From Mucilaginibacter sp. (GTDB lineage: Bacteria; Bacteroidota; Bacteroidia; Sphingobacteriales; Sphingobacteriaceae): a stretch of 64,000 nucleotides of DNA. This document shows, one piece after another, positions 2,575-63,881 of the stretch. The first letter of the stretch is position 1. Every line of letters starts with the position of its first letter. Below the pieces are notes generated by a model, which had not been told where the DNA came from, did no database searches, and saw nothing but the letters and a program-made list of their open reading frames with translations. Where the stretch lies: NCBI RefSeq assembly GCF_025362475.1, contig NZ_JANYGH010000024.1:2164-66163 (forward strand). The letters run 5' to 3'. The position numbers and the translations under genes were made by a program.

Positions 2575-3273
2575 TTACTTCCCCTGATTGATCAACATAT
2601 ACATTACCTGCTCCCTTAATTGCCTGCTAATAGGGATTTGGTATTGCCCAACATTTAAAGTATTCCCCTCAATGGAGCTAACCTTATTGTAAGCAACGAT
2701 ATAGGATTTATGTGTTTGCAGAAACCTGCTTTGTGGCAGCTTATCGGCAAACGCTTTTAACGTACTATGGGTGATGATCTTTTTATTAAGGGTTTGTATC
2801 ACCACATAATTTTCCATGCCCTGCACAAAAAACACTTCATCAAAAATAACTTTCTCCAGTTTGCCTTCGCTTTTTACAAACAGGTAACCAGCCTCGCTCC
2901 CATTACTTTTTTGGTCAAAATAATCTTTAGCCTTAAAGGCAGCCTTCATGAAGCGTTCAAAAGAAATAGGCTTAAGCAGGTAATCCAGTATATCCAGGTC
3001 GAAACCATCGGTGGCATATTCTTTAAAAGCGGTAGTAAATATCACCTTTGGCGGATTTTGAAGTGACTTTAAAAAATCCACACCCGTTAAATGCGGCATT
3101 TGGATATCCAGAAAAAGCAGGTCGACCGGTTGTTGCTTCAACACATTGCTCAGCTCCATGGCATCTTCGCATTGGGCTTTCAGATCAAAAAAGCCTGCTT
3201 TTTCTATATATCCCTGCAGGCCTTTTCTTGCAAAAGGTTCATCATCGGTTATAATACAATTAATCCGGCCCAT
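2575..3273 (-). CDS. LytTR-family response regulator
   Basis: Receiver (DDE, FLDIQMP, LLKP) plus LytTR domain (FLQTHKSYIV). Confidence 0.93.
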   Translation of the reverse strand: MGRINCIITDDEPFARKGLQGYIEKAGFFDLKAQCEDAMELSNVLKQQPVDLLFLDIQMPHLTGVDFLKSLQNPPKVIFTTAFKEYATDGFDLDILDYLLKPISFERFMKAAFKAKDYFDQKSNGSEAGYLFVKSEGKLEKVIFDEVFFVQGMENYVVIQTLNKKIITHSTLKAFADKLPQSRFLQTHKSYIVAYNKVSSIEGNTLNVGQYQIPISRQLREQVMYMLINQGK

Positions 3274-7667: not shown

Positions 7668-8201
7668 ATGAAAAAAGTTCACTTAACACTGATGTTATTA
7701 GCCGGCCTTACAACATCAGTACTGGCCCAAAAATTAGAGAAACCTGAAATTGACAAGATCAAAGGCGATACAACCTGGAGAACTTCAGATGAGCGTATCT
7801 ATACCCAGCTTGGCCTTGTTACGGGGCGCTTGCTTTACGTGTACACACAAAAAATAGGCAAAAGCTATGTGCTTGCATTCAGATTAGATAATGTGAACGG
7901 CCCGCGTGTATTTTCGATAGGTCCGGCTGACATAACCAACATTAAATTTACCGATAACAGCGTTCTTGACCTTTCACCAACTGTTGGCGGCGATCCTCAT
8001 GTAAGTTATAATACGGAGGCCAACCGGGTTATTACCCTGATATATTACGATCTGGCAAAAGAAGATATAGAGACTTTAAAAACAAAGTCGATATCAATTA
8101 TCCGGATTGCGACCGAAGGCGCCGGAAACTTCGATTATGAGATAAAACCTAAAAATTCAAATCTGGTAAAAAAAGATCTGGAGTTAATATTGACAAAGTA
8201 A
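7668..8201 (+). CDS. Secreted hypothetical protein
   Basis: Signal peptide MKKVHLTLMLLAGLTTSVLA-Q; no recognised domain. Confidence 0.75.
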   Translation: MKKVHLTLMLLAGLTTSVLAQKLEKPEIDKIKGDTTWRTSDERIYTQLGLVTGRLLYVYTQKIGKSYVLAFRLDNVNGPRVFSIGPADITNIKFTDNSVLDLSPTVGGDPHVSYNTEANRVITLIYYDLAKEDIETLKTKSISIIRIATEGAGNFDYEIKPKNSNLVKKDLELILTK

Positions 8202-57695: not shown

Positions 57696-57838
57696 ATTAT
57701 AATTTTAGGTATTTTACCATATAAATCTACTCAAATAACGGAGAATAGTTTCCGGCAGTCAGAAATTGTGCAACGTGCACACCCCTTTTGCCTTTTAGCA
57801 CATGTATACCAAAACATGTTTTTAAAAAAATTCACCGT

Positions 57839-58220
57839 TCAAATTGTTTGCCCGTTGATGGTTTTTACAAAATTTTTGCCGCCATCATCCAAAACCAACA
57901 TCCAGTCTTATCCGTACCCGTTTGTCGGCGGTATAACCTTTTTAGTTACGTTTGGCATGTTGCCAATAACTGTTGTTTAACCATCGCGCGGGTTATACCA
58001 GTAAGCGTATAAATTACCTAACCATATAATGTTAGTTCTGCTTTTATAACGCCTGGCTAACCATGCGGCAAATATAGCAGCATTATTATCATTAAAAACC
58101 TCCGGACCAGCGCCCCAGGTATTTTTATATAATTTATCGCCCCATGTTGGCAAAACAGCAATATTCAAGTGATACTTTTCTGCCCGGTTAATAAAAACAC
58201 ATTTCCGCATGAACGAAGAT
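57839..58220 (-). pseudogene. Relic of a DUF4038/GH140 (apiosidase-like) gene
   Basis: AVLPTWGD...RYKSRTNIIWL joined directly to C-terminal AYWYNPRDG, then frameshifted PPTNGYG*DWMLVLDD. Confidence 0.7.
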
Positions 58221-58896: not shown

Positions 58897-59169
58897 ATGT
58901 CTGCAGATAATTCCATTTCACCCGTTCAAGCTGACCTTGTCCAAATTATTTCTAAATATATTTTACTTGAAGAAAGCCGCAAACACTTAAAAGGGCGGTG
59001 CCCCTTTCATAAGGACCTGGCAACCTCATTAATGGTTTCTCCTGATAAAAATATTTTTCAATGCTTTGGCTGCGGCAAAGGTGGTGGCCCCGTTGAGTTT
59101 GTAATGGCAATAGAAAATAAAACACGCGAAGAAGCGATACATCTTATCGCCACACAAAAACCTTTTTAA
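58897..59169 (+). CDS. Stand-alone CHC2 zinc-finger (DnaG ZBD-like) protein
   Basis: CPFH...CFGC, GGGPVEFVMAIEN; stop after 90 aa, no TOPRIM continuation. Confidence 0.8.
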   Translation: MSADNSISPVQADLVQIISKYILLEESRKHLKGRCPFHKDLATSLMVSPDKNIFQCFGCGKGGGPVEFVMAIENKTREEAIHLIATQKPF

Positions 59170-59330: not shown

Positions 59331-60659
59331 TCAGGGGAATTTAACACTGTTATATGAAGATATATCAGCCGAAGGAATATTAGCATTGTATTGTTTATTA
59401 ATAGCGCTTATAAACTGATTAGCCACAACGGCATAACCCCTTGGCGTTAAATGTATCCCATCCAACGAAAAAATGCCCCCGCTAATATAATTGGAGTTTA
59501 AACTTACTCCATTAATAAGCAAGCCCGATTGTTTTATGTTATTCAGGAAAGTAAAAGCATCAAAAACAGCCAGGCCTTTTGCGGCCGCAACAGATTTAAT
59601 GGTTCCGTTATAAGAATTAACATAATCAAGCGTCATAGCGGCTTCTGCTTGATCAAGTACATATTTATTATCTATAGGGGTATAAGGCGTTAGTCCGTAA
59701 GGCAGGTTGCCAAATGGCGTTGATACAGGTGTCCCAATCATACTTGTTGGAAAAGTAAGTATGATTAAATCAGACGCTGTAGCGGCCCGCGGCGCATAAG
59801 TGGTACCAGACACCAGCGCGTTTATATAAATTGCTGTAACAGCCGGATTAACCTTCTTAACCCCCGCCAAAATTGCATTCACGGTTATTGTGGTAAAGTA
59901 AGGTACCGAAGTAACATCTGGTATAGTAGCCACCACACCTTTTGCGCCACCTGCGGTAAGCTTACCAATAAGCAGGTTATATAGTTGTGCAAAGGTATTT
60001 TTATCTGTCAAAACATCACCTACACCACCGGCTGTTGCATATCCAAGGGCATCGTTATTACCAAGCCAGTTGGAGAAAAAGGTAAAAGGCTTCGCGGTAA
60101 CAAAATCAAGATACGTAGTATTGTTAGTAGGCGCGTTACCGGGCAGCAAACGTTCAAAGTACCCATTTAGATTACCGTATGGGGCATAGGTGATGTGAAA
60201 TAATTTTATGCCCGGTACTCCATAATTATTAAGTTCGCCGGCATATTTGGTATATAAAGTAACGTTACCGAAACCAGGTACCGTTAAAAAACCTCTTATA
60301 GCCAGGTTTGTTGTTACCGGCGTAGTCATAGGAGTTCCATCTGCATTAAACCCGCCCAGTTTCAAATAACCAGAGCCATTTGCCTGCTCTGGGGTAAAAA
60401 GTGGTTGCGTAAATGCCCCTCCTCCTACGCTTAACATTTGTTTGGCAATGATACTTGGATACGAGTTTAATTGTCCTTCGCGGTAAAGGCCACCATCAGC
60501 ATAACCGGCGGTTAATGAATTACCCACGGATATATAGCGCGTAAAATCTGCGGATCCTTTGGATGGTTTAAAGGTATTAATCTCTGGCTTACAGGCTGCA
60601 AAGCCCAATACACCAAGGATAAATAAGTAGCGATAGCAATATTGTTTAAAAGTCTTCAT
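59331..60659 (-). CDS. SGNH/GDSL hydrolase lipoprotein
   Basis: Lipobox FAAC, GNSLTAG, WLGNND, DGIH. Confidence 0.88.
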   Translation of the reverse strand: MKTFKQYCYRYLFILGVLGFAACKPEINTFKPSKGSADFTRYISVGNSLTAGYADGGLYREGQLNSYPSIIAKQMLSVGGGAFTQPLFTPEQANGSGYLKLGGFNADGTPMTTPVTTNLAIRGFLTVPGFGNVTLYTKYAGELNNYGVPGIKLFHITYAPYGNLNGYFERLLPGNAPTNNTTYLDFVTAKPFTFFSNWLGNNDALGYATAGGVGDVLTDKNTFAQLYNLLIGKLTAGGAKGVVATIPDVTSVPYFTTITVNAILAGVKKVNPAVTAIYINALVSGTTYAPRAATASDLIILTFPTSMIGTPVSTPFGNLPYGLTPYTPIDNKYVLDQAEAAMTLDYVNSYNGTIKSVAAAKGLAVFDAFTFLNNIKQSGLLINGVSLNSNYISGGIFSLDGIHLTPRGYAVVANQFISAINKQYNANIPSADISSYNSVKFP

Positions 60660-60678: not shown

Positions 60679-61902
60679 TTACCAGTGGTAAGCAAGAGAA
60701 ATGCCGGGGATGTATACGTCGGTTTTAAATGTGCCTGATAGTTGCGATTGAGTATTGGTTTGCGTGCGCGACATCAGGTGCTCATATTCAAAACTAAAGT
60801 CAATATCAATGTGTCTGGTGGCATGATAGCCTAAACCTGTTGTTAAAAAAATACGATTAGCATCGGGCGCTTCCGGGGTAACATAGCCATCACGAACGGC
60901 GGTGCTGGCATAACCGCCGCCGGCGCGGATATCAAATTTGTTATTTGCCTTGTATTGTGCCCCTGCCCTTAAAGAAACCGCATTTTTATAGTTACGCTGA
61001 GAATAAGTATCCTGCAATTGGGCAGTGTTGGTTGCATAATTAAAAGCAAGTTGCTTGTAAACACTCCAGTTTACATAATTAACGTCAAATGCCAGCATCA
61101 GCTTTTTGTTGGGATATATACCAAAACCGATTGATGCTGTTGCAGGCAGAGGTAAAGAGGAACTAAAAGTATTAGGCTGAGGGAAACTGCTCTGAAGGGA
61201 AGCAGGAACGGTAAATATTGCGTCTCCTTTTTTAATGGTGGTATTTATTTTTGAACGATAAGATAAGCCCACGGTAAACATCTCCGATGGTTTATAATAA
61301 ATACCCGCGTTCCATCCGTATCCGTTACCACTTCCTTTTATCTCGGCTTGTCCGTCCTGCCCGTTTTGATTTGATATTGGGATGGCCTGGGTTAAATCAA
61401 CCGTGCTACGGTTATAAACAAACCCTGCACCTATGCTTAAATTATTAGCCAGTTTAACGCTCAATGTAGGCTGAAAATAAAAGGCTTTAAGATTAAGGCT
61501 TTCCAGCGAATATCTCCCAGCCCAATCATGGCCCCAATCGGTTAGCCCGCCAAAAGGCGTATAAACGGCCAGTCCAAGTTTCCACCAGGATGATTTGGGG
61601 CCTACTGCAGCGTAAACGCTAAATGGAGTGGCAACCTTGTTGGTGGTGTGGTACTGAGCCGATGTACCATTTGGGTTAAAAACGGATTTAAATACAAGCG
61701 GGCTTATTCCGGCCTGGATGTAATTACCGGGCAACATAACAACCGCGCCGGGGTTAAAAAATACAGAAGCTCCATCCTGCACCACCCCGGTGCCGGTGTG
61801 CCCCATCCCGATCTGTTTCTGACCTTCAAGGTTAACCTGAAATCCCTGGGCGAACGCCAGAACCGGTAATAACGCGAACGCTAAGAGTAATAGTTTTCTC
61901 AT
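60679..61902 (-). CDS. OmpP1/FadL-family outer-membrane transporter
   Basis: GFQVNLEGQKQIGMGHTG, ASVFFNPG, YTPFG, terminal aromatic AYHW. Confidence 0.9.
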   Translation of the reverse strand: MRKLLLLAFALLPVLAFAQGFQVNLEGQKQIGMGHTGTGVVQDGASVFFNPGAVVMLPGNYIQAGISPLVFKSVFNPNGTSAQYHTTNKVATPFSVYAAVGPKSSWWKLGLAVYTPFGGLTDWGHDWAGRYSLESLNLKAFYFQPTLSVKLANNLSIGAGFVYNRSTVDLTQAIPISNQNGQDGQAEIKGSGNGYGWNAGIYYKPSEMFTVGLSYRSKINTTIKKGDAIFTVPASLQSSFPQPNTFSSSLPLPATASIGFGIYPNKKLMLAFDVNYVNWSVYKQLAFNYATNTAQLQDTYSQRNYKNAVSLRAGAQYKANNKFDIRAGGGYASTAVRDGYVTPEAPDANRIFLTTGLGYHATRHIDIDFSFEYEHLMSRTQTNTQSQLSGTFKTDVYIPGISLAYHW

Positions 61903-62002
61903 AATATAATTGGTATAATTTAGGCCGCAGTTTGGGATTGCGCCTATTGTTTATTAAAAATTAAAATTACTTCGTTAAACAATCAAAAAAAGGGCTATAA
62001 TG

Positions 62003-62026
62003 CGGAGATATTAGTCAAAAAGTCGG
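62003..62026 (-). promoter_or_regulatory. 24-bp site, left copy (oriented toward fadL)
   Basis: CGGAGATATTAGTCAAAAAGTCGG, exact reverse complement of 62977-63000. Confidence 0.7.
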
Positions 62027-62059
62027 TTATGAAATATTTAAACCTTTTTAAGCTTTAAA

Positions 62060-62944
62060 ATGAAGAAGATAGGACAACTCAGTTTATCAAAGTTTGCGGA
62101 CCTATATGCGGACAAGCTGGTAGGCCCTGATTTTTTTATTACAGACGAAAAACAACTCCTCTCCCTTAGTGAATACCCTTACCGCTCAGATGGTTATATT
62201 ATAGGTATCTGTACGCGCGGAACCGCGTTAGTAGAAGTAAACCTGCAGGTTTACGAAGCTAAGCCTGATGCCATGCTGCTGGCTACCCCTTTTCATGTAT
62301 TAAGGATATACCAAAGCAGCCCCGATTTTTTGTGCAGGTTTATTGTTTTTTCGAAAGCCTTCCTCATTGAGAATAATGTAAATAGTCATTTCCTTGAATC
62401 TTTCAGTTATTTTAAAAGTGCATCCTTGCCGGTAATCTATCCCGATCATGAGGACGCTAAAATGCTGCTTGAAATTTATGTCCTGCTTCAGCAAAAACTC
62501 GACAGGCAGGATCACCCCTACCGCATGGAAATTTCCAGGAGTATCCTTATTACACTATTATATGAAGTAGGATCTATTTATGAAAAGCAGCATGTGATGG
62601 TTAAAGGAAAACTAAACCGCAAGCAGGAGCTGAATGTACTTTTCCAGGATTTAGTGTTTCATCATTATAAAGAGCACCGTAATGTGCAATATTATGCCGA
62701 TGCTTTATGCGTATCATCAAAACACCTTACCGAAACCATAAAAGATGTAACCGGCCGAACTGCCGGCGAATGGATAGATGACGCCGTGATTCTTGAAGCC
62801 AAAGTTTTGTTAAGGAACCAGGAGATCAGTATAGCTAATATCGCGTATGTAATTCATTTTCCAGACCAATCATCTTTTGGCAAGTATTTCAAAAAACAAA
62901 CAGGCTTATCACCTTCAGATTACCGGATGGCTATTCCCCGTTAG
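62060..62944 (+). CDS. AraC-family transcriptional regulator
   Basis: YYADALCVSSKHLTETIK, FPDQSSFGKYFKKQTGLSPSDYR. Confidence 0.93.
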   Translation: MKKIGQLSLSKFADLYADKLVGPDFFITDEKQLLSLSEYPYRSDGYIIGICTRGTALVEVNLQVYEAKPDAMLLATPFHVLRIYQSSPDFLCRFIVFSKAFLIENNVNSHFLESFSYFKSASLPVIYPDHEDAKMLLEIYVLLQQKLDRQDHPYRMEISRSILITLLYEVGSIYEKQHVMVKGKLNRKQELNVLFQDLVFHHYKEHRNVQYYADALCVSSKHLTETIKDVTGRTAGEWIDDAVILEAKVLLRNQEISIANIAYVIHFPDQSSFGKYFKKQTGLSPSDYRMAIPR

Positions 62945-62976
62945 TTAAAGCCCTACTTTAGCCAATATTCTTCTTT

Positions 62977-63000
62977 CCGACTTTTTGACTAATATCTCCG
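62977..63000 (+). promoter_or_regulatory. 24-bp site, right copy (oriented toward etfB)
   Basis: CCGACTTTTTGACTAATATCTCCG. Confidence 0.7.
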
Positions 63001-63137
63001 TACTGCCGCCCTTTGCGGCAGTAGCCTTCACTTCTAATTTTACCCCCTGATTATATAACCGGATGGCGCTTGCTATCAAAACAAATGGGGGCCGGTAAAG
63101 CCTTGTAAATTTTACCAGATTTAACATAATAACCTAT

Positions 63138-63881
63138 ATGAAGATATTAGTATGCATTAGCCAGGTGCCAGATACTACCACCAAAATAATATTAAAAGAT
63201 AATGACACGGCCATTAATAGCCAGGGTACTACCTATATAATTAATCCCTATGATGAGTGGTACGCACTGGTTCGTGCTATTGAATTAAAGGAAAGCGGGA
63301 TTGCTACTGAGATCCACCTGGTAACTGTTGGCAAAGCTGATATTGAGCCAGTAATACGCAAAGCACTCGCATTGGGAGGTGATGAGGCTATCAGGATTGA
63401 TGCCGAAAGTATCGACCCATACCAAACCGCAGTTTATATTGCTGATTACACTAAAAGTGCGGGGTACGACCTGGTATTGTGCGGTAAAGAGTCAATAGAC
63501 TATAACAACGGCACTACAGGCGTTTTGCTTGCCGAACTGCTTGACATGGATTATATAGGTTTTGCCACAAGTGTAAAAATTGAAGGTAATGTGGCCATAG
63601 TAAATCGTGAAATTGAGGGTGGTGAAGAAACCGATAGCTGCAACCTCCCGGTTGTAATTGCCTGCCAGAAAGGAGTAGCCGAAGCACGCATACCCAATAT
63701 GAGGGGCATCATGGCCGCACGCACACGCCCGTTAAAAGTAATTGCTCCATCAGCCATAACTCCTCTCACTGCTATCCTATCATACGAGTTACCACCTGCC
63801 AAAGCAGGGGTAAAATTGGTAAGCGCAGATAATATGGATGAACTGGTAGCCTTACTGCATACCGAAGCCAAGTCGATTTAA
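63138..63881 (+). CDS. etfB: Electron transfer flavoprotein beta subunit
   Basis: CISQVPDT, INPYDEWY, ALALGGD, GKESIDYNNG, ARIPNMRGIM. Confidence 0.95.
   Translation: MKILVCISQVPDTTTKIILKDNDTAINSQGTTYIINPYDEWYALVRAIELKESGIATEIHLVTVGKADIEPVIRKALALGGDEAIRIDAESIDPYQTAVYIADYTKSAGYDLVLCGKESIDYNNGTTGVLLAELLDMDYIGFATSVKIEGNVAIVNREIEGGEETDSCNLPVVIACQKGVAEARIPNMRGIMAARTRPLKVIAPSAITPLTAILSYELPPAKAGVKLVSADNMDELVALLHTEAKSI

What the first reader, a model, noticed from the sequence alone, without database searches (positions are those of the whole stretch)
61962..63042. Perfect 24-bp inverted repeat around araC defines twin promoter-like units for fadL-SGNH and etfBA
Seen: identical 24-mers at 62003-62026 and 62977-63000 point outward. 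Each is followed by a CCCTTT..G element and by TAATTTTA (a non-consensus -7 box) after 33 nt (61962-61969) and 34 nt (63035-63042). In the right copy CCG recurs at a 21-bp period (62977, 62998), which is AraC-like. Inference: an AraC activator co-induces lipid uptake/hydrolysis and ETF for beta-oxidation, a candidate FadR-independent fatty-acid regulon with a readable operator. Alternative: recombinase sites of a ~1-kb invertible segment, as in Bacteroides phase variation. A 9-bp hairpin (63001-63023) overlaps the etfB-side promoter.
Basis: partly seen in the sequence, partly recalled or inferred. Interest (0 to 1): 0.62.

Follow-up and report, generated by a model that had tools for sequence, protein, structure and literature searches.

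The report
AraC-type operators of a fatty-acid cluster
The 24-letter inverted repeat around this soil bacterium's araC-type regulator gene is real, but it is most likely two of three copies of the regulator's docking site in front of fatty-acid-uptake and fatty-acid-burning operons, not a flip-switch: a tidy new regulon of a familiar kind.

Summary
The perfect 24-mer pair (62003-62026 / 62977-63000) occurs only here in the 6.45-Mb Mucilaginibacter genome.

Comparative evidence supports the operator reading:
- The 24-mer heads a conserved promoter module: 24-mer, (G)CCCTTT, then a -7-like box (TAATTTTA) after a rigid 33-34 nt.
- The module keeps the same orientation relative to transcription in front of fadL-SGNH and (acad)-etfBA.
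- A weaker third copy lies in front of DUF2147-fadBA-acad-fadD, 1.7 kb beyond the window.
- A PWM scan finds only these three sites in the genome.
- The module is present in 89 of 229 species of the genus, together with the regulator and the beta-oxidation cluster.
- The site is a tandem half-site with a 21-bp period that abuts the -33 element, the classic AraC/XylS activator layout.
- The same layout sits next to 30-36 % identical paralogs that have other target genes. This ties the motif to the regulator subfamily.

Evidence against inversion:
- araC has the same orientation in all ~45 complete loci.
- The arms stay with the outward promoters when DNA is inserted next to araC.
- No recombinase gene lies on the 119-kb contig.

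The two arms evolve in concert, probably by gene conversion. Binding, activation and the ligand are inferred, not shown. Verdict: a new member of a known kind, of moderate interest.

The parts
59331..60659 (-). GDSL/SGNH-type lipase/acylhydrolase gene, second gene of the fadL operon
   Evidence: Pfam Lipase_GDSL, E 1.3e-6, 29.1 bits against a cut-off of 23.6. Syntenic with fadL in all orthologous loci.
60679..61902 (-). FadL/TodX-family outer-membrane long-chain fatty-acid channel gene
   Evidence: Pfam Toluene_X, E 3.4e-55. NCBIfam FadL, E 1.1e-22, below the equivalog cut-off.
61962..61969 (-). -7-like box TAATTTTA of the fadL promoter; predicted start of transcription near 61957
   Evidence: A TAnnTTTA-type box starts exactly 33 nt after the 24-mer in 47 of 47 fadL-side sites. 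The sigma-A -7 box TAnnTTTG lies at -12 to -5 in flavobacteria (PMC9723704).
61989..62027 (-). fadL-side operator. Distal half-site inside the perfect 24-mer (62003-62026); proximal half-site TCCGCATTATAGCC; CCCTTT at the -33 position.
   Evidence: 64.6-bit PWM hit, the best in the genome. 21-nt self-similarity peak.
62060..62944 (+). AraC/XylS-family regulator gene (294 aa): N-terminal cupin-like sensor/dimerisation domain and C-terminal double helix-turn-helix
   Evidence: HTH_18 E 8.5e-20, HTH_AraC E 4.1e-11, AraC_binding E 9.4e-4. AlphaFold model pLDDT 81.7. Foldseek hits to ToxT/Rns over the full length and to RhaR/AraC regulatory domains, TMt up to 0.75. It is the only regulator gene in the cluster.
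62976..63014 (+). etf-side operator. Perfect 24-mer (62977-63000); proximal half-site TCCGTACTGCCGCC; CCCTTT (63009-63014) at the -33 position.
   Evidence: 51.9-bit PWM hit. With the predicted start near 63047, it spans about -70 to -36.
63001..63023 (+). 9-bp hairpin overlapping the proximal half-site and the -33 element; probable terminator or insulator for araC read-through
   Evidence: -15.6 kcal/mol, z -5.45. Hairpin potential exists only on the araC-downstream side: 16 of 49 sites at or below -8 kcal/mol, against 0 of 47 and 0 of 11 on the other sides, and the stems differ in sequence between species.
63035..63042 (+). -7-like box TAATTTTA of the etfBA promoter; predicted start of transcription near 63047
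   Evidence: The box starts 33-34 nt after the 24-mer in 49 of 49 acad/etf-side sites.
63049..63062 (+). Local variant (GATTATATAACCGG) of a second conserved box, TTATAAA(A)CCAATTA, shared by all three promoter modules; function unknown
   Evidence: Conserved in alignments of the outward flanks. It is not a general start-codon signal in this genome.
63138..63881 (+). etfB, first gene of an operon that continues beyond the window with etfA, a thioesterase and an ACBP
   Evidence: Pfam ETF, E 3.3e-28. Downstream genes.

Best explanation
The two 24-mers are the high-affinity distal half-sites of two operators for the AraC/XylS-type regulator encoded between them.

Each operator is a tandem direct repeat, TCCGnnTTnTnGnC-like, with a 21-bp period. 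Its proximal half-site abuts a CCCTTT element at the -33 position of a weak Bacteroidota sigma-A promoter. The -7 box of that promoter (TAATTTTA) starts 33-34 nt after the 24-mer. The operator therefore spans about -70 to -36, the position of a class II activator.

One such promoter drives fadL-SGNH leftward and one drives etfBA-thioesterase-ACBP rightward. In most relatives the rightward operon starts with an extra acyl-CoA dehydrogenase gene. A third, weaker copy drives DUF2147-fadB-thiolase-acad-fadD-hydratase-reductase.

The repeat is inverted only because two promoters that point away from each other flank the regulator gene. The regulator probably senses a fatty acid or acyl-CoA through its cupin domain and then recruits RNA polymerase to all three promoters. 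At the fadL-side site it probably also affects its own divergent promoter.

The two strong sites are kept identical by occasional gene conversion between them.

Shown here: the motif, its architecture, spacing, orientation, conservation, genome-wide uniqueness, co-occurrence with the regulator, and recurrence beside paralogs. Inferred: binding by this protein, activation rather than repression, the ligand, autoregulation and the conversion mechanism.
For: (1) The module is conserved in ~50 orthologous Mucilaginibacter loci while the surrounding intergenic DNA diverges.

(2) The spacing from operator to -7 box is rigid: 33 nt in 47/47 fadL-side sites, 33-34 nt in 49/49 acad/etf-side sites and 33 nt in 11/11 third sites.

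(3) Orientation is always toward the controlled operon. Where 0.8-1.4 kb is inserted next to araC, the arm stays with the outward promoter.

(4) A third copy with the same architecture precedes DUF2147-fadB. The PWM scan of the whole genome gives only these three sites (64.6, 51.9 and 46.3 bits) and nothing else above 12 bits.

(5) Phyletic pattern. The motif is in 89/229 genomes of the genus, typically as two outward-facing copies. A mis-spaced pattern gives only chance-level hits. Of the 36 same-genus genomes, 12/12 with the ortholog have the motif and 0/24 without it do. Twelve genomes without the regulator also lack the FadB ortholog, with positive controls included.

(6) AraC is the only transcription-factor gene in the cluster.

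(7) Self-similarity of the site peaks at a shift of exactly 21 nt in all classes: 8.2-8.6 of 15 in Mucilaginibacter and 11.4 of 15 in Pedobacter.

(8) The same motif type, CCTTT element and 33-34-nt spacing lie beside 30-36 % identical paralogs with unrelated targets: an aminotransferase/GNAT operon in 10 Pedobacter loci, a TetR gene and a pirin-like gene. The DNA-binding domains are 46-53 % identical, against 16-27 % for the sensor domains.

(9) The conserved -7 box departs from the consensus at its last base (A for G) in most sites, as expected for an activator-dependent promoter (consensus from PMC9723704).
Against: - No experiment of any kind; binding and induction are inferred.
- Regulator, motif and cluster are always inherited together, so co-occurrence alone cannot exclude a binder encoded elsewhere.
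- The promoter boxes are predictions without mapped transcription starts.
- The structure comparison did not identify the ligand. The ToxT/Rns matches have low TM (0.33-0.46) and reflect the shared two-domain fold.
- Identity over 24-29 nt is more than a binding site usually needs. Concerted evolution explains it only by inference.
Confidence: 0.8

Rival explanations
1. The motif is an operator, but for a different transcription factor encoded elsewhere in the genome, such as a global lipid regulator. The local AraC protein would have other sites.
For: Motif, regulator and cluster are always co-inherited, so the phyletic pattern cannot separate them. Nothing here shows binding.
Against: - AraC is the only regulator gene in the cluster.
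- Only three sites exist in the genome, all in this cluster.
- The tandem 21-bp half-site layout abutting the -33 element is the AraC/XylS pattern.
- The same motif and architecture travel with 30-36 % identical AraC paralogs into unrelated gene contexts.
Confidence: 0.07
2. The regulator binds these sites mainly as a repressor, or as a loop-forming dual regulator. Without ligand, one dimer would bridge the two identical distal half-sites 1-2.5 kb apart and enclose araC. With ligand it would shift to adjacent half-sites and activate, like the AraC light switch on a larger scale.
For: - Two identical strong half-sites flank the gene, and each has a weaker proximal half-site.
- In the window's clade the fadL-side arm lies only 33 nt from the araC ATG, so it overlaps araC's own promoter.
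- E. coli AraC is known to loop between distant half-sites (established knowledge).
Against: - The arm-to-arm distance varies from 1.0 to about 2.5 kb without any sign of phasing.
- The third promoter and the paralog loci have a single site and the same architecture.
- In the deepest lineages the etf-side arm is degenerate or undetected.
Confidence: 0.08
3. The repeats are recombination sites of a ~1-kb invertible segment that flips araC, a phase-variation switch as in Bacteroides.
For: - A perfect inverted repeat flanks a discrete segment.
- The two arms evolve in concert, which recombination between them would produce.
- One lineage (L054) shows a conversion tract.
Against: - araC has the same orientation relative to fadL and acad/etf in all ~45 complete loci from different species and metagenomes.
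- The segment carries a whole regulator gene, while the controlled promoters lie outside the arms.
- Similarity continues beyond the arms into promoter elements with rigid spacing.
- A third copy in direct orientation exists.
- There is no tyrosine or serine recombinase on the 119-kb contig, and the motif occurs nowhere else in the genome.
- When extra DNA is inserted, the arms stay with the outward promoters.
Confidence: 0.03
4. The arms act as RNA or are relics of a mobile element. Either they pair as a 5'-3' panhandle on the araC transcript, or they are terminal inverted repeats of an element that delivered araC.
For: Both arms change together, which keeps them complementary. An inverted repeat brackets a single gene.
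Against: - araC's own -7 boxes lie close to its ATG and downstream of the arm. The spacer between arm and ATG is 33 to ~450 nt and unconserved, so the upstream arm is not in the transcript.
- No Rfam family matches.
- There is no transposase, the locus is single and the synteny fixed.
- The third site and the paralog sites are single copies.
Confidence: 0.02

Closest known systems
E. coli AraC at araC-pBAD (I1-I2 half-sites); likewise RhaS/RhaR and XylS at Pm
   Same: - Two-domain regulator: cupin sensor/dimerisation domain plus double HTH.
- Regulator gene divergent from a controlled operon.
- Operator made of two direct-repeat half-sites 21 bp apart, with the proximal one touching the -35-equivalent element.
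- Likely autoregulation through the shared intergenic region.
   Different: - Only 71 bits to the AraC equivalog model, whose cut-off is 208.
- Bacteroidota sigma-A promoter grammar (-33/-7) instead of -35/-10.
- Targets are fatty-acid uptake and beta-oxidation genes.
- Three promoters in one cluster.
- A second strong operator lies downstream of the regulator gene.
- No evidence for a distant O2-type looping site.
Fatty-acid-sensing AraC-family regulators ToxT (Vibrio cholerae), Rns/CsvR (E. coli) and HilD (Salmonella)
   Same: AraC-family proteins whose N-terminal domain binds long-chain fatty acids (PMC7504960, PMC9247172). They are the top full-length structural matches to the model.
   Different: - In those proteins fatty acids inhibit virulence-gene activators; here the regulon is catabolic and presumably induced.
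- Sequence identity is 9-16 % and TM-scores 0.33-0.46, so no specific relationship or shared ligand pocket is shown.
Known fatty-acid-degradation regulators: FadR (GntR family, E. coli, Vibrio), FadR/YsiA, PsrA and FadP (TetR family)
   Same: The functional role is the same: local or global control of fadL, fadBA, fadE, fadD and etf genes in response to acyl-CoA or fatty acids.
   Different: - Those are repressors of other protein families that bind palindromic operators.
- This one belongs to the AraC family, with an asymmetric tandem operator in an activator position.
- Literature searches here found no AraC-type regulator of beta-oxidation in Bacteroidota.
Bacteroides invertible promoters (the Mpi/Tsr-type phase-variation switches)
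   Same: Short inverted repeats bracket a DNA segment in a member of the phylum Bacteroidota.
   Different: - No recombinase nearby.
- No alternative orientation in ~45 genomes.
- The segment holds a regulator gene, not a promoter.
- The repeat is unique in the genome.
- The repeat belongs to a larger promoter module that also occurs in direct orientation.

Membership tests
AraC/XylS-family transcription activator with tandem direct-repeat operator | C-terminal DNA-binding domain with two helix-turn-helix motifs | tested here: met
   HTH_18 E 8.5e-20 (71.3 bits, cut-off 33.6) and HTH_AraC E 4.1e-11. PDB sequence hits to the AraC DNA-binding domain, SoxS and Rob.
AraC/XylS-family transcription activator with tandem direct-repeat operator | N-terminal cupin-like sensor/dimerisation domain (two-domain members) | tested here: met
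   AraC_binding E 9.4e-4, just under the Pfam cut-off. AF2 model with a beta-barrel at residues 25-97 followed by helices, pLDDT 81.7. Foldseek matches to RhaR, AraC and BgaR regulatory domains, TMt 0.56-0.75.
AraC/XylS-family transcription activator with tandem direct-repeat operator | Operator made of two direct-repeat half-sites about two helical turns (21 bp) apart | tested here: met
   Self-similarity of 15-nt windows peaks at a shift of 21 in the fadL, acad and third site classes and in Pedobacter: 8.2-11.4 of 15, against 7.4 or less at any other shift. This is at the sequence level only.
AraC/XylS-family transcription activator with tandem direct-repeat operator | Proximal half-site abuts or overlaps the -35-equivalent element, at fixed distance from the promoter | tested here: met
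   CCCTTT directly follows the proximal half-site. The -7-like box starts 33-34 nt after the 24-mer in 107 of 107 Mucilaginibacter sites and in 13 of 13 paralog sites. Transcription starts are predicted, not mapped.
AraC/XylS-family transcription activator with tandem direct-repeat operator | The protein binds the operator and activates transcription in response to a ligand | not testable with these tools
   Needs EMSA or footprinting, reporter assays and a knockout.
Invertible (phase-variable) DNA segment | Inverted repeats flanking the segment | tested here: met
   Perfect 24-bp inverted repeat, 950 nt apart.
Invertible (phase-variable) DNA segment | Both orientations found among genomes or reads | tested here: not met
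   All ~45 complete orthologous loci have araC co-directional with acad/etf.
Invertible (phase-variable) DNA segment | Site-specific recombinase encoded nearby, or repeat shared with other switch loci of a global invertase | tested here: not met
   All 8 Phage_integrase and 3 Resolvase matches in the genome lie on other contigs. The repeat has no further copy in the genome.
Invertible (phase-variable) DNA segment | Inversion couples or uncouples a promoter and its gene | tested here: not met
   The predicted target promoters lie outside the arms, and araC's own promoter lies inside with the gene. A flip would therefore not switch any of them.

The most novel reading that the evidence does not exclude
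The two operators flanking araC are not just independent activator sites. On this reading they are kept letter-identical by recurrent recombination between the arms because the regulator uses them as a pair. That could be a kilobase-scale AraC-type repression loop enclosing its own gene. Alternatively it could be rare RecA-type inversion of araC that goes unseen in consensus assemblies. Either way this would be a regulatory design in which operator identity is maintained by concerted evolution.
Probability: 0.1. Interest if true: 0.55.

Novelty: new member of a known kind. Interest (0 to 1): 0.36.

Why it matters
Regulation of fatty-acid degradation is well worked out in Proteobacteria and Firmicutes, where the regulators are GntR- and TetR-type repressors. 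It is essentially uncharted in Bacteroidota.

This locus offers a concrete, testable model:
- an AraC-type, probably activating, regulator;
- a fully readable operator and promoter layout;
- a three-promoter regulon covering uptake, hydrolysis, electron transfer and the whole beta-oxidation cycle.

The same operator layout (motif, CCTTT at -33, 33-34 nt to the -7 box) appears beside paralogs with other targets. It could therefore be used to predict regulons of a whole AraC subfamily in Sphingobacteriaceae, and as an inducible promoter part for these hard-to-engineer soil bacteria. The concerted evolution of two operators 1-2.5 kb apart is a small but clean example of gene conversion acting on regulatory sites.

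Tried and rejected
(1) The first genus-wide pattern search used the wrong spacer (7 N instead of 6) and missed the real sites. It gave only chance-level hits (27/229 genomes, own genome 0) and was kept as a negative control.

(2) Invertible segment: rejected on orientation, architecture and the absence of a recombinase.

(3) Dispersed repeat or MITE: rejected, since the strict motif has only two copies and the PWM finds three sites in the genome.

(4) RNA panhandle or a known RNA family: rejected.

(5) The idea that the second box, AAACCAAT, is a general translation or start signal: rejected. Of its copies, 17.6 % lie near an ORF start, against 13-18 % for control k-mers. Its role stays open.

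(6) Ligand inference from structure: uninformative. The ToxT/Rns hits are generic full-length AraC-family matches with low TM.

(7) The sigma-70-type promoter scan does not apply to Bacteroidota promoters and was ignored. The conserved TATAAT at 61996-62001 on the fadL side is better read as part of the proximal half-site.

(8) Literature searches found no described AraC-type beta-oxidation regulator in Bacteroidota. The first search was swamped by 'arachidonic'.

(10) Earlier scan notes had nothing on this stretch or on look-alikes.
Full report
**1. Observation**

The region was read directly. The 24-mer CGGAGATATTAGTCAAAAAGTCGG lies at 62003-62026, and its exact reverse complement lies at 62977-63000. 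Similarity extends to 38 nt at 87 % (61989-62026 / 62977-63014). No shuffle of the window gave a match even with three mismatches allowed. The 6.45-Mb genome has no further copy.

The other details also hold:
- CCCTTT follows each copy.
- TAATTTTA starts 33 nt (left) and 34 nt (right) after the 24-mer.
- CCG recurs at a 21-bp period.
- A 9-bp hairpin sits at 63001-63023 (-15.6 kcal/mol, z -5.45).

The gene calls are right: GDSL/SGNH 59331-60659 (-), FadL family 60679-61902 (-), AraC-type regulator 62060-62944 (+), EtfB 63138-63881 (+).

**2. Context**

Reading on beyond the window shows a complete beta-oxidation cluster after etfB. In order it holds:
- etfA, a 4HBT thioesterase and an acyl-CoA-binding protein;
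- DUF2147, a multifunctional FadB (3-hydroxyacyl-CoA dehydrogenase plus enoyl-CoA hydratase), a thiolase, an acyl-CoA dehydrogenase and an acyl-CoA synthetase;
- an enoyl-CoA hydratase and an SDR reductase;
- Fe-S and CCG-domain oxidoreductase genes and a HAD hydrolase.

An unrelated ECF-sigma/FecR/SusCD locus follows. The AraC-type gene is the only regulator gene in the cluster.

**3. Conservation and architecture**

The organism is a Mucilaginibacter. Orthologs of the regulator at 74-95 % identity occur in about 50 fetched loci. The next-best homologs drop to about 35 %.

Every complete locus has the order SGNH(-) FadL(-) [arm] AraC(+) [arm] (ACAD) EtfB(+). In most species an extra acyl-CoA dehydrogenase gene lies between the downstream arm and etfB.

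Alignment of the outward flanks shows that the 24-mer is the head of a conserved module: TCCGACTTTTTGAC-N6-CTCCGCATT-nnn-GCCCTTT, then about 15 nt, then CTAATTTTA.

The distance from the 24-mer to the -7-like box is rigid:

| Site class | Distance | Sites |
|---|---|---|
| fadL side | 33 nt | 47 of 47 |
| acad/etf side | 33-34 nt | 49 of 49 |
| third site | 33 nt | 11 of 11 |

In flavobacteria the sigma-A -7 box TAnnTTTG lies at -12 to -5 (PMC9723704). The predicted transcription starts are therefore near 61957 and 63047, and the operator spans about -70 to -36.

Where 0.8-1.4 kb of extra DNA lies between araC and an arm (L033, L036, L049, L053, L066, L072), the arm stays next to the outward operon and not next to araC.

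**4. A third site and genome-wide uniqueness**

A weaker copy, CCGAAATTTTGACAAATGTTTCCG, lies before DUF2147-fadB. It has the same CCCT(T)T element, the same spacing and a nearly canonical -7 box (GATATTTG). It sits at L029:7841-7864, which corresponds to window coordinate about 65677, outside the window. It is present in every locus that extends far enough.

A position weight matrix built from all site classes finds exactly three sites in the genome, at 64.6, 51.9 and 46.3 bits. Nothing else scores above 12 bits. The inverted repeat is thus two of three instances of one orientation-fixed promoter module. The regulon is the cluster itself.

**5. Link to the regulator**

- In the genus, 89 of 229 species carry the motif, typically as two outward-facing copies 1.0-2.5 kb apart. 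The backwards control pattern is near zero, and a mis-spaced pattern gives only chance hits.
- Among the 36 congeners, 12 of 12 with the ortholog have the motif and 0 of 24 without it do.
- Twelve genomes without the regulator also lack the FadB ortholog, with positive controls included. Regulator, operators and cluster are therefore inherited as one unit, which by itself cannot prove who binds.
- Two further observations do tie the motif to the protein family.
  - The site repeats on itself at a shift of exactly 21 nt in all classes. This is the tandem direct-repeat layout of AraC I1-I2, RhaS and XylS, with the proximal half-site abutting the -33 element.
  - The same motif type, CCTTT element and 33-34-nt spacing to a -7-like box occur next to 30-36 % identical paralogs with unrelated targets. 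These are a class I/II aminotransferase plus GNAT operon in ten Pedobacter loci, a TetR gene, and a pirin-like gene.
- The DNA-binding domains of these paralogs are 46-53 % identical to the window's protein, against 16-27 % for the sensor domains.

**6. The protein**

It has a double HTH (HTH_18, HTH_AraC) and a weak AraC_binding hit. No curated family fits: the AraC equivalog scores 71 bits against a cut-off of 208.

The AlphaFold model (pLDDT 81.7) shows a cupin barrel, helical linkers and the double-HTH domain. The full-length Foldseek matches are ToxT, Rns and CsvR. The regulatory domain alone matches RhaR, AraC and BgaR, with TMt up to 0.75. This establishes the fold but not the ligand.

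**7. Concerted evolution of the two arms**

The centre hexamer of the 24-mer varies between species but is usually the same in both arms. Of 42 loci with both arms, 36 have identical hexamers, and 12 of those carry derived ones.

On the regulator tree both arms share derived states in at least five lineages:
- the CAATAC clade;
- a GAATAT subclade, nested inside a clade in which only the acad-side arm is GAATAT;
- L041 (TAATTT);
- L074 (CAAACT);
- L075 (CAATAA).

The third site's hexamer (AAATGT or AAATCA) does not follow the arms. Co-adaptation to the protein is therefore an unlikely cause.

In L054 the fadL-side arm carries the acad-type proximal flank (CACTGCTG instead of CATTATAG), which looks like a conversion tract. 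Occasional gene conversion between the arms is the simplest reading. This is inference.

**8. Inversion and other rivals**

Against inversion:
- araC is never inverted in about 45 complete loci.
- The promoters it would have to switch lie outside the arms. araC's own -7 boxes lie inside, close to its ATG, separated from the arm by 33 to about 450 nt of unconserved DNA.
- No tyrosine or serine recombinase gene lies on the 119-kb contig.
- The repeat occurs nowhere else in the genome.

The same spacer data argue against a 5'-3' RNA panhandle. No Rfam family matches.

**9. The hairpin**

Hairpin potential over the proximal half-site and -33 element exists only on the araC-downstream side. There, 16 of 49 sites fold at or below -8 kcal/mol, against none on the other two sides, and the stems have different sequences in different species. 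The likely role is to stop araC read-through before the regulated promoter. It lacks a canonical U-tract, so this is tentative.

**10. Comparison and verdict**

The system works like araC-pBAD or XylS-Pm transplanted onto Bacteroidota promoter grammar and onto a fatty-acid catabolic cluster. It differs in family and in logic from the GntR- and TetR-type repressors known for fad regulons. Literature searches found fatty-acid-sensing AraC proteins only as virulence regulators (PMC7504960, PMC9247172). They found no AraC-type beta-oxidation regulator in Bacteroidota.

It is a new member of a known kind. The prediction is solid and testable and would be useful for Bacteroidota regulation. It is not a surprise to a specialist: interest 0.36, confidence in the operator/activator model 0.8.

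Noticed in passing
L029:7841-7905 (same contig; corresponds to window coordinate ~65677-65741, beyond the window end): Third, weaker operator copy (CCGAAATTTTGACAAATGTTTCCG) with the same CCCT(T)T element and a GATATTTG -7 box 33 nt downstream. It lies in front of DUF2147-fadB-thiolase-acad-fadD. It scores 46.3 bits in the PWM scan.
   Followed up: yes
window 63049-63062; fadL side about 61912-61926; L029 about 7912-7930: A second conserved box, TTATAAA(A)CCAATTA, lies downstream of the -7 box in all three promoter modules. On the fadL side it sits just before the ATG. It is not a general start-codon signal in this genome. It could be a second regulator's site or a leader element.
   Followed up: partly
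L108-L118 (Pedobacter spp.), about 3016-3043 in each locus: A 32 % identical AraC paralog is divergent from a class I/II aminotransferase plus GNAT-domain operon. That operon is preceded by CCnACATTTTGACCAATATATCCC, then CCTTT, then TAAAATTG 34 nt after the motif. The half-sites repeat very clearly at 21 bp (11.4 of 15). The target looks like an acyl-CoA-using alpha-oxoamine-synthase type lipid pathway.
   Followed up: partly
L021:2384-2407, L022:1353-1376, L026:2377-2400 (Mucilaginibacter paralog loci): Paralogous AraC genes (30-36 % identity) have the same operator layout immediately downstream of their stop codon. It faces a TetR-family gene (L021, L022) or a pirin-like gene (L026). The regulator-then-operator-then-target arrangement therefore recurs in the subfamily.
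   Followed up: partly
L054 (M. lappiensis ANJLi2), fadL-side arm at about 3335: The fadL-side arm carries the acad-type proximal flank (CACTGCTGCCC instead of CATTATAGCCC) and shares an unusual C with its own acad-side arm. This looks like a gene-conversion tract between the two arms.
   Followed up: partly
window 63137-63151: The start of etfB (ATGAAGATATTAGTA) is an 87 % inverted match to part of the operator (ACTAATATCTCCGTA, 62988-63002). It lies in the conserved MKILVC coding sequence, so it is probably chance.
   Followed up: no
window 62945-63137 compared with relatives (L030-L037, L040): The window's genome, with a few relatives (e.g. L042, L075, L078, L081), lacks the extra acyl-CoA dehydrogenase gene that sits between the downstream arm and etfB in most species. 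Here the operator therefore drives etfB directly.
   Followed up: partly
window 58897-59169: A lone 90-aa ORF holds only the CHC2 zinc-finger of DnaG-type primases (Zn_ribbon_DnaG, E 1.7e-22). It lies next to short ORF fragments at 57768-58210. It may be a gene remnant or a stand-alone zinc-ribbon protein.
   Followed up: no
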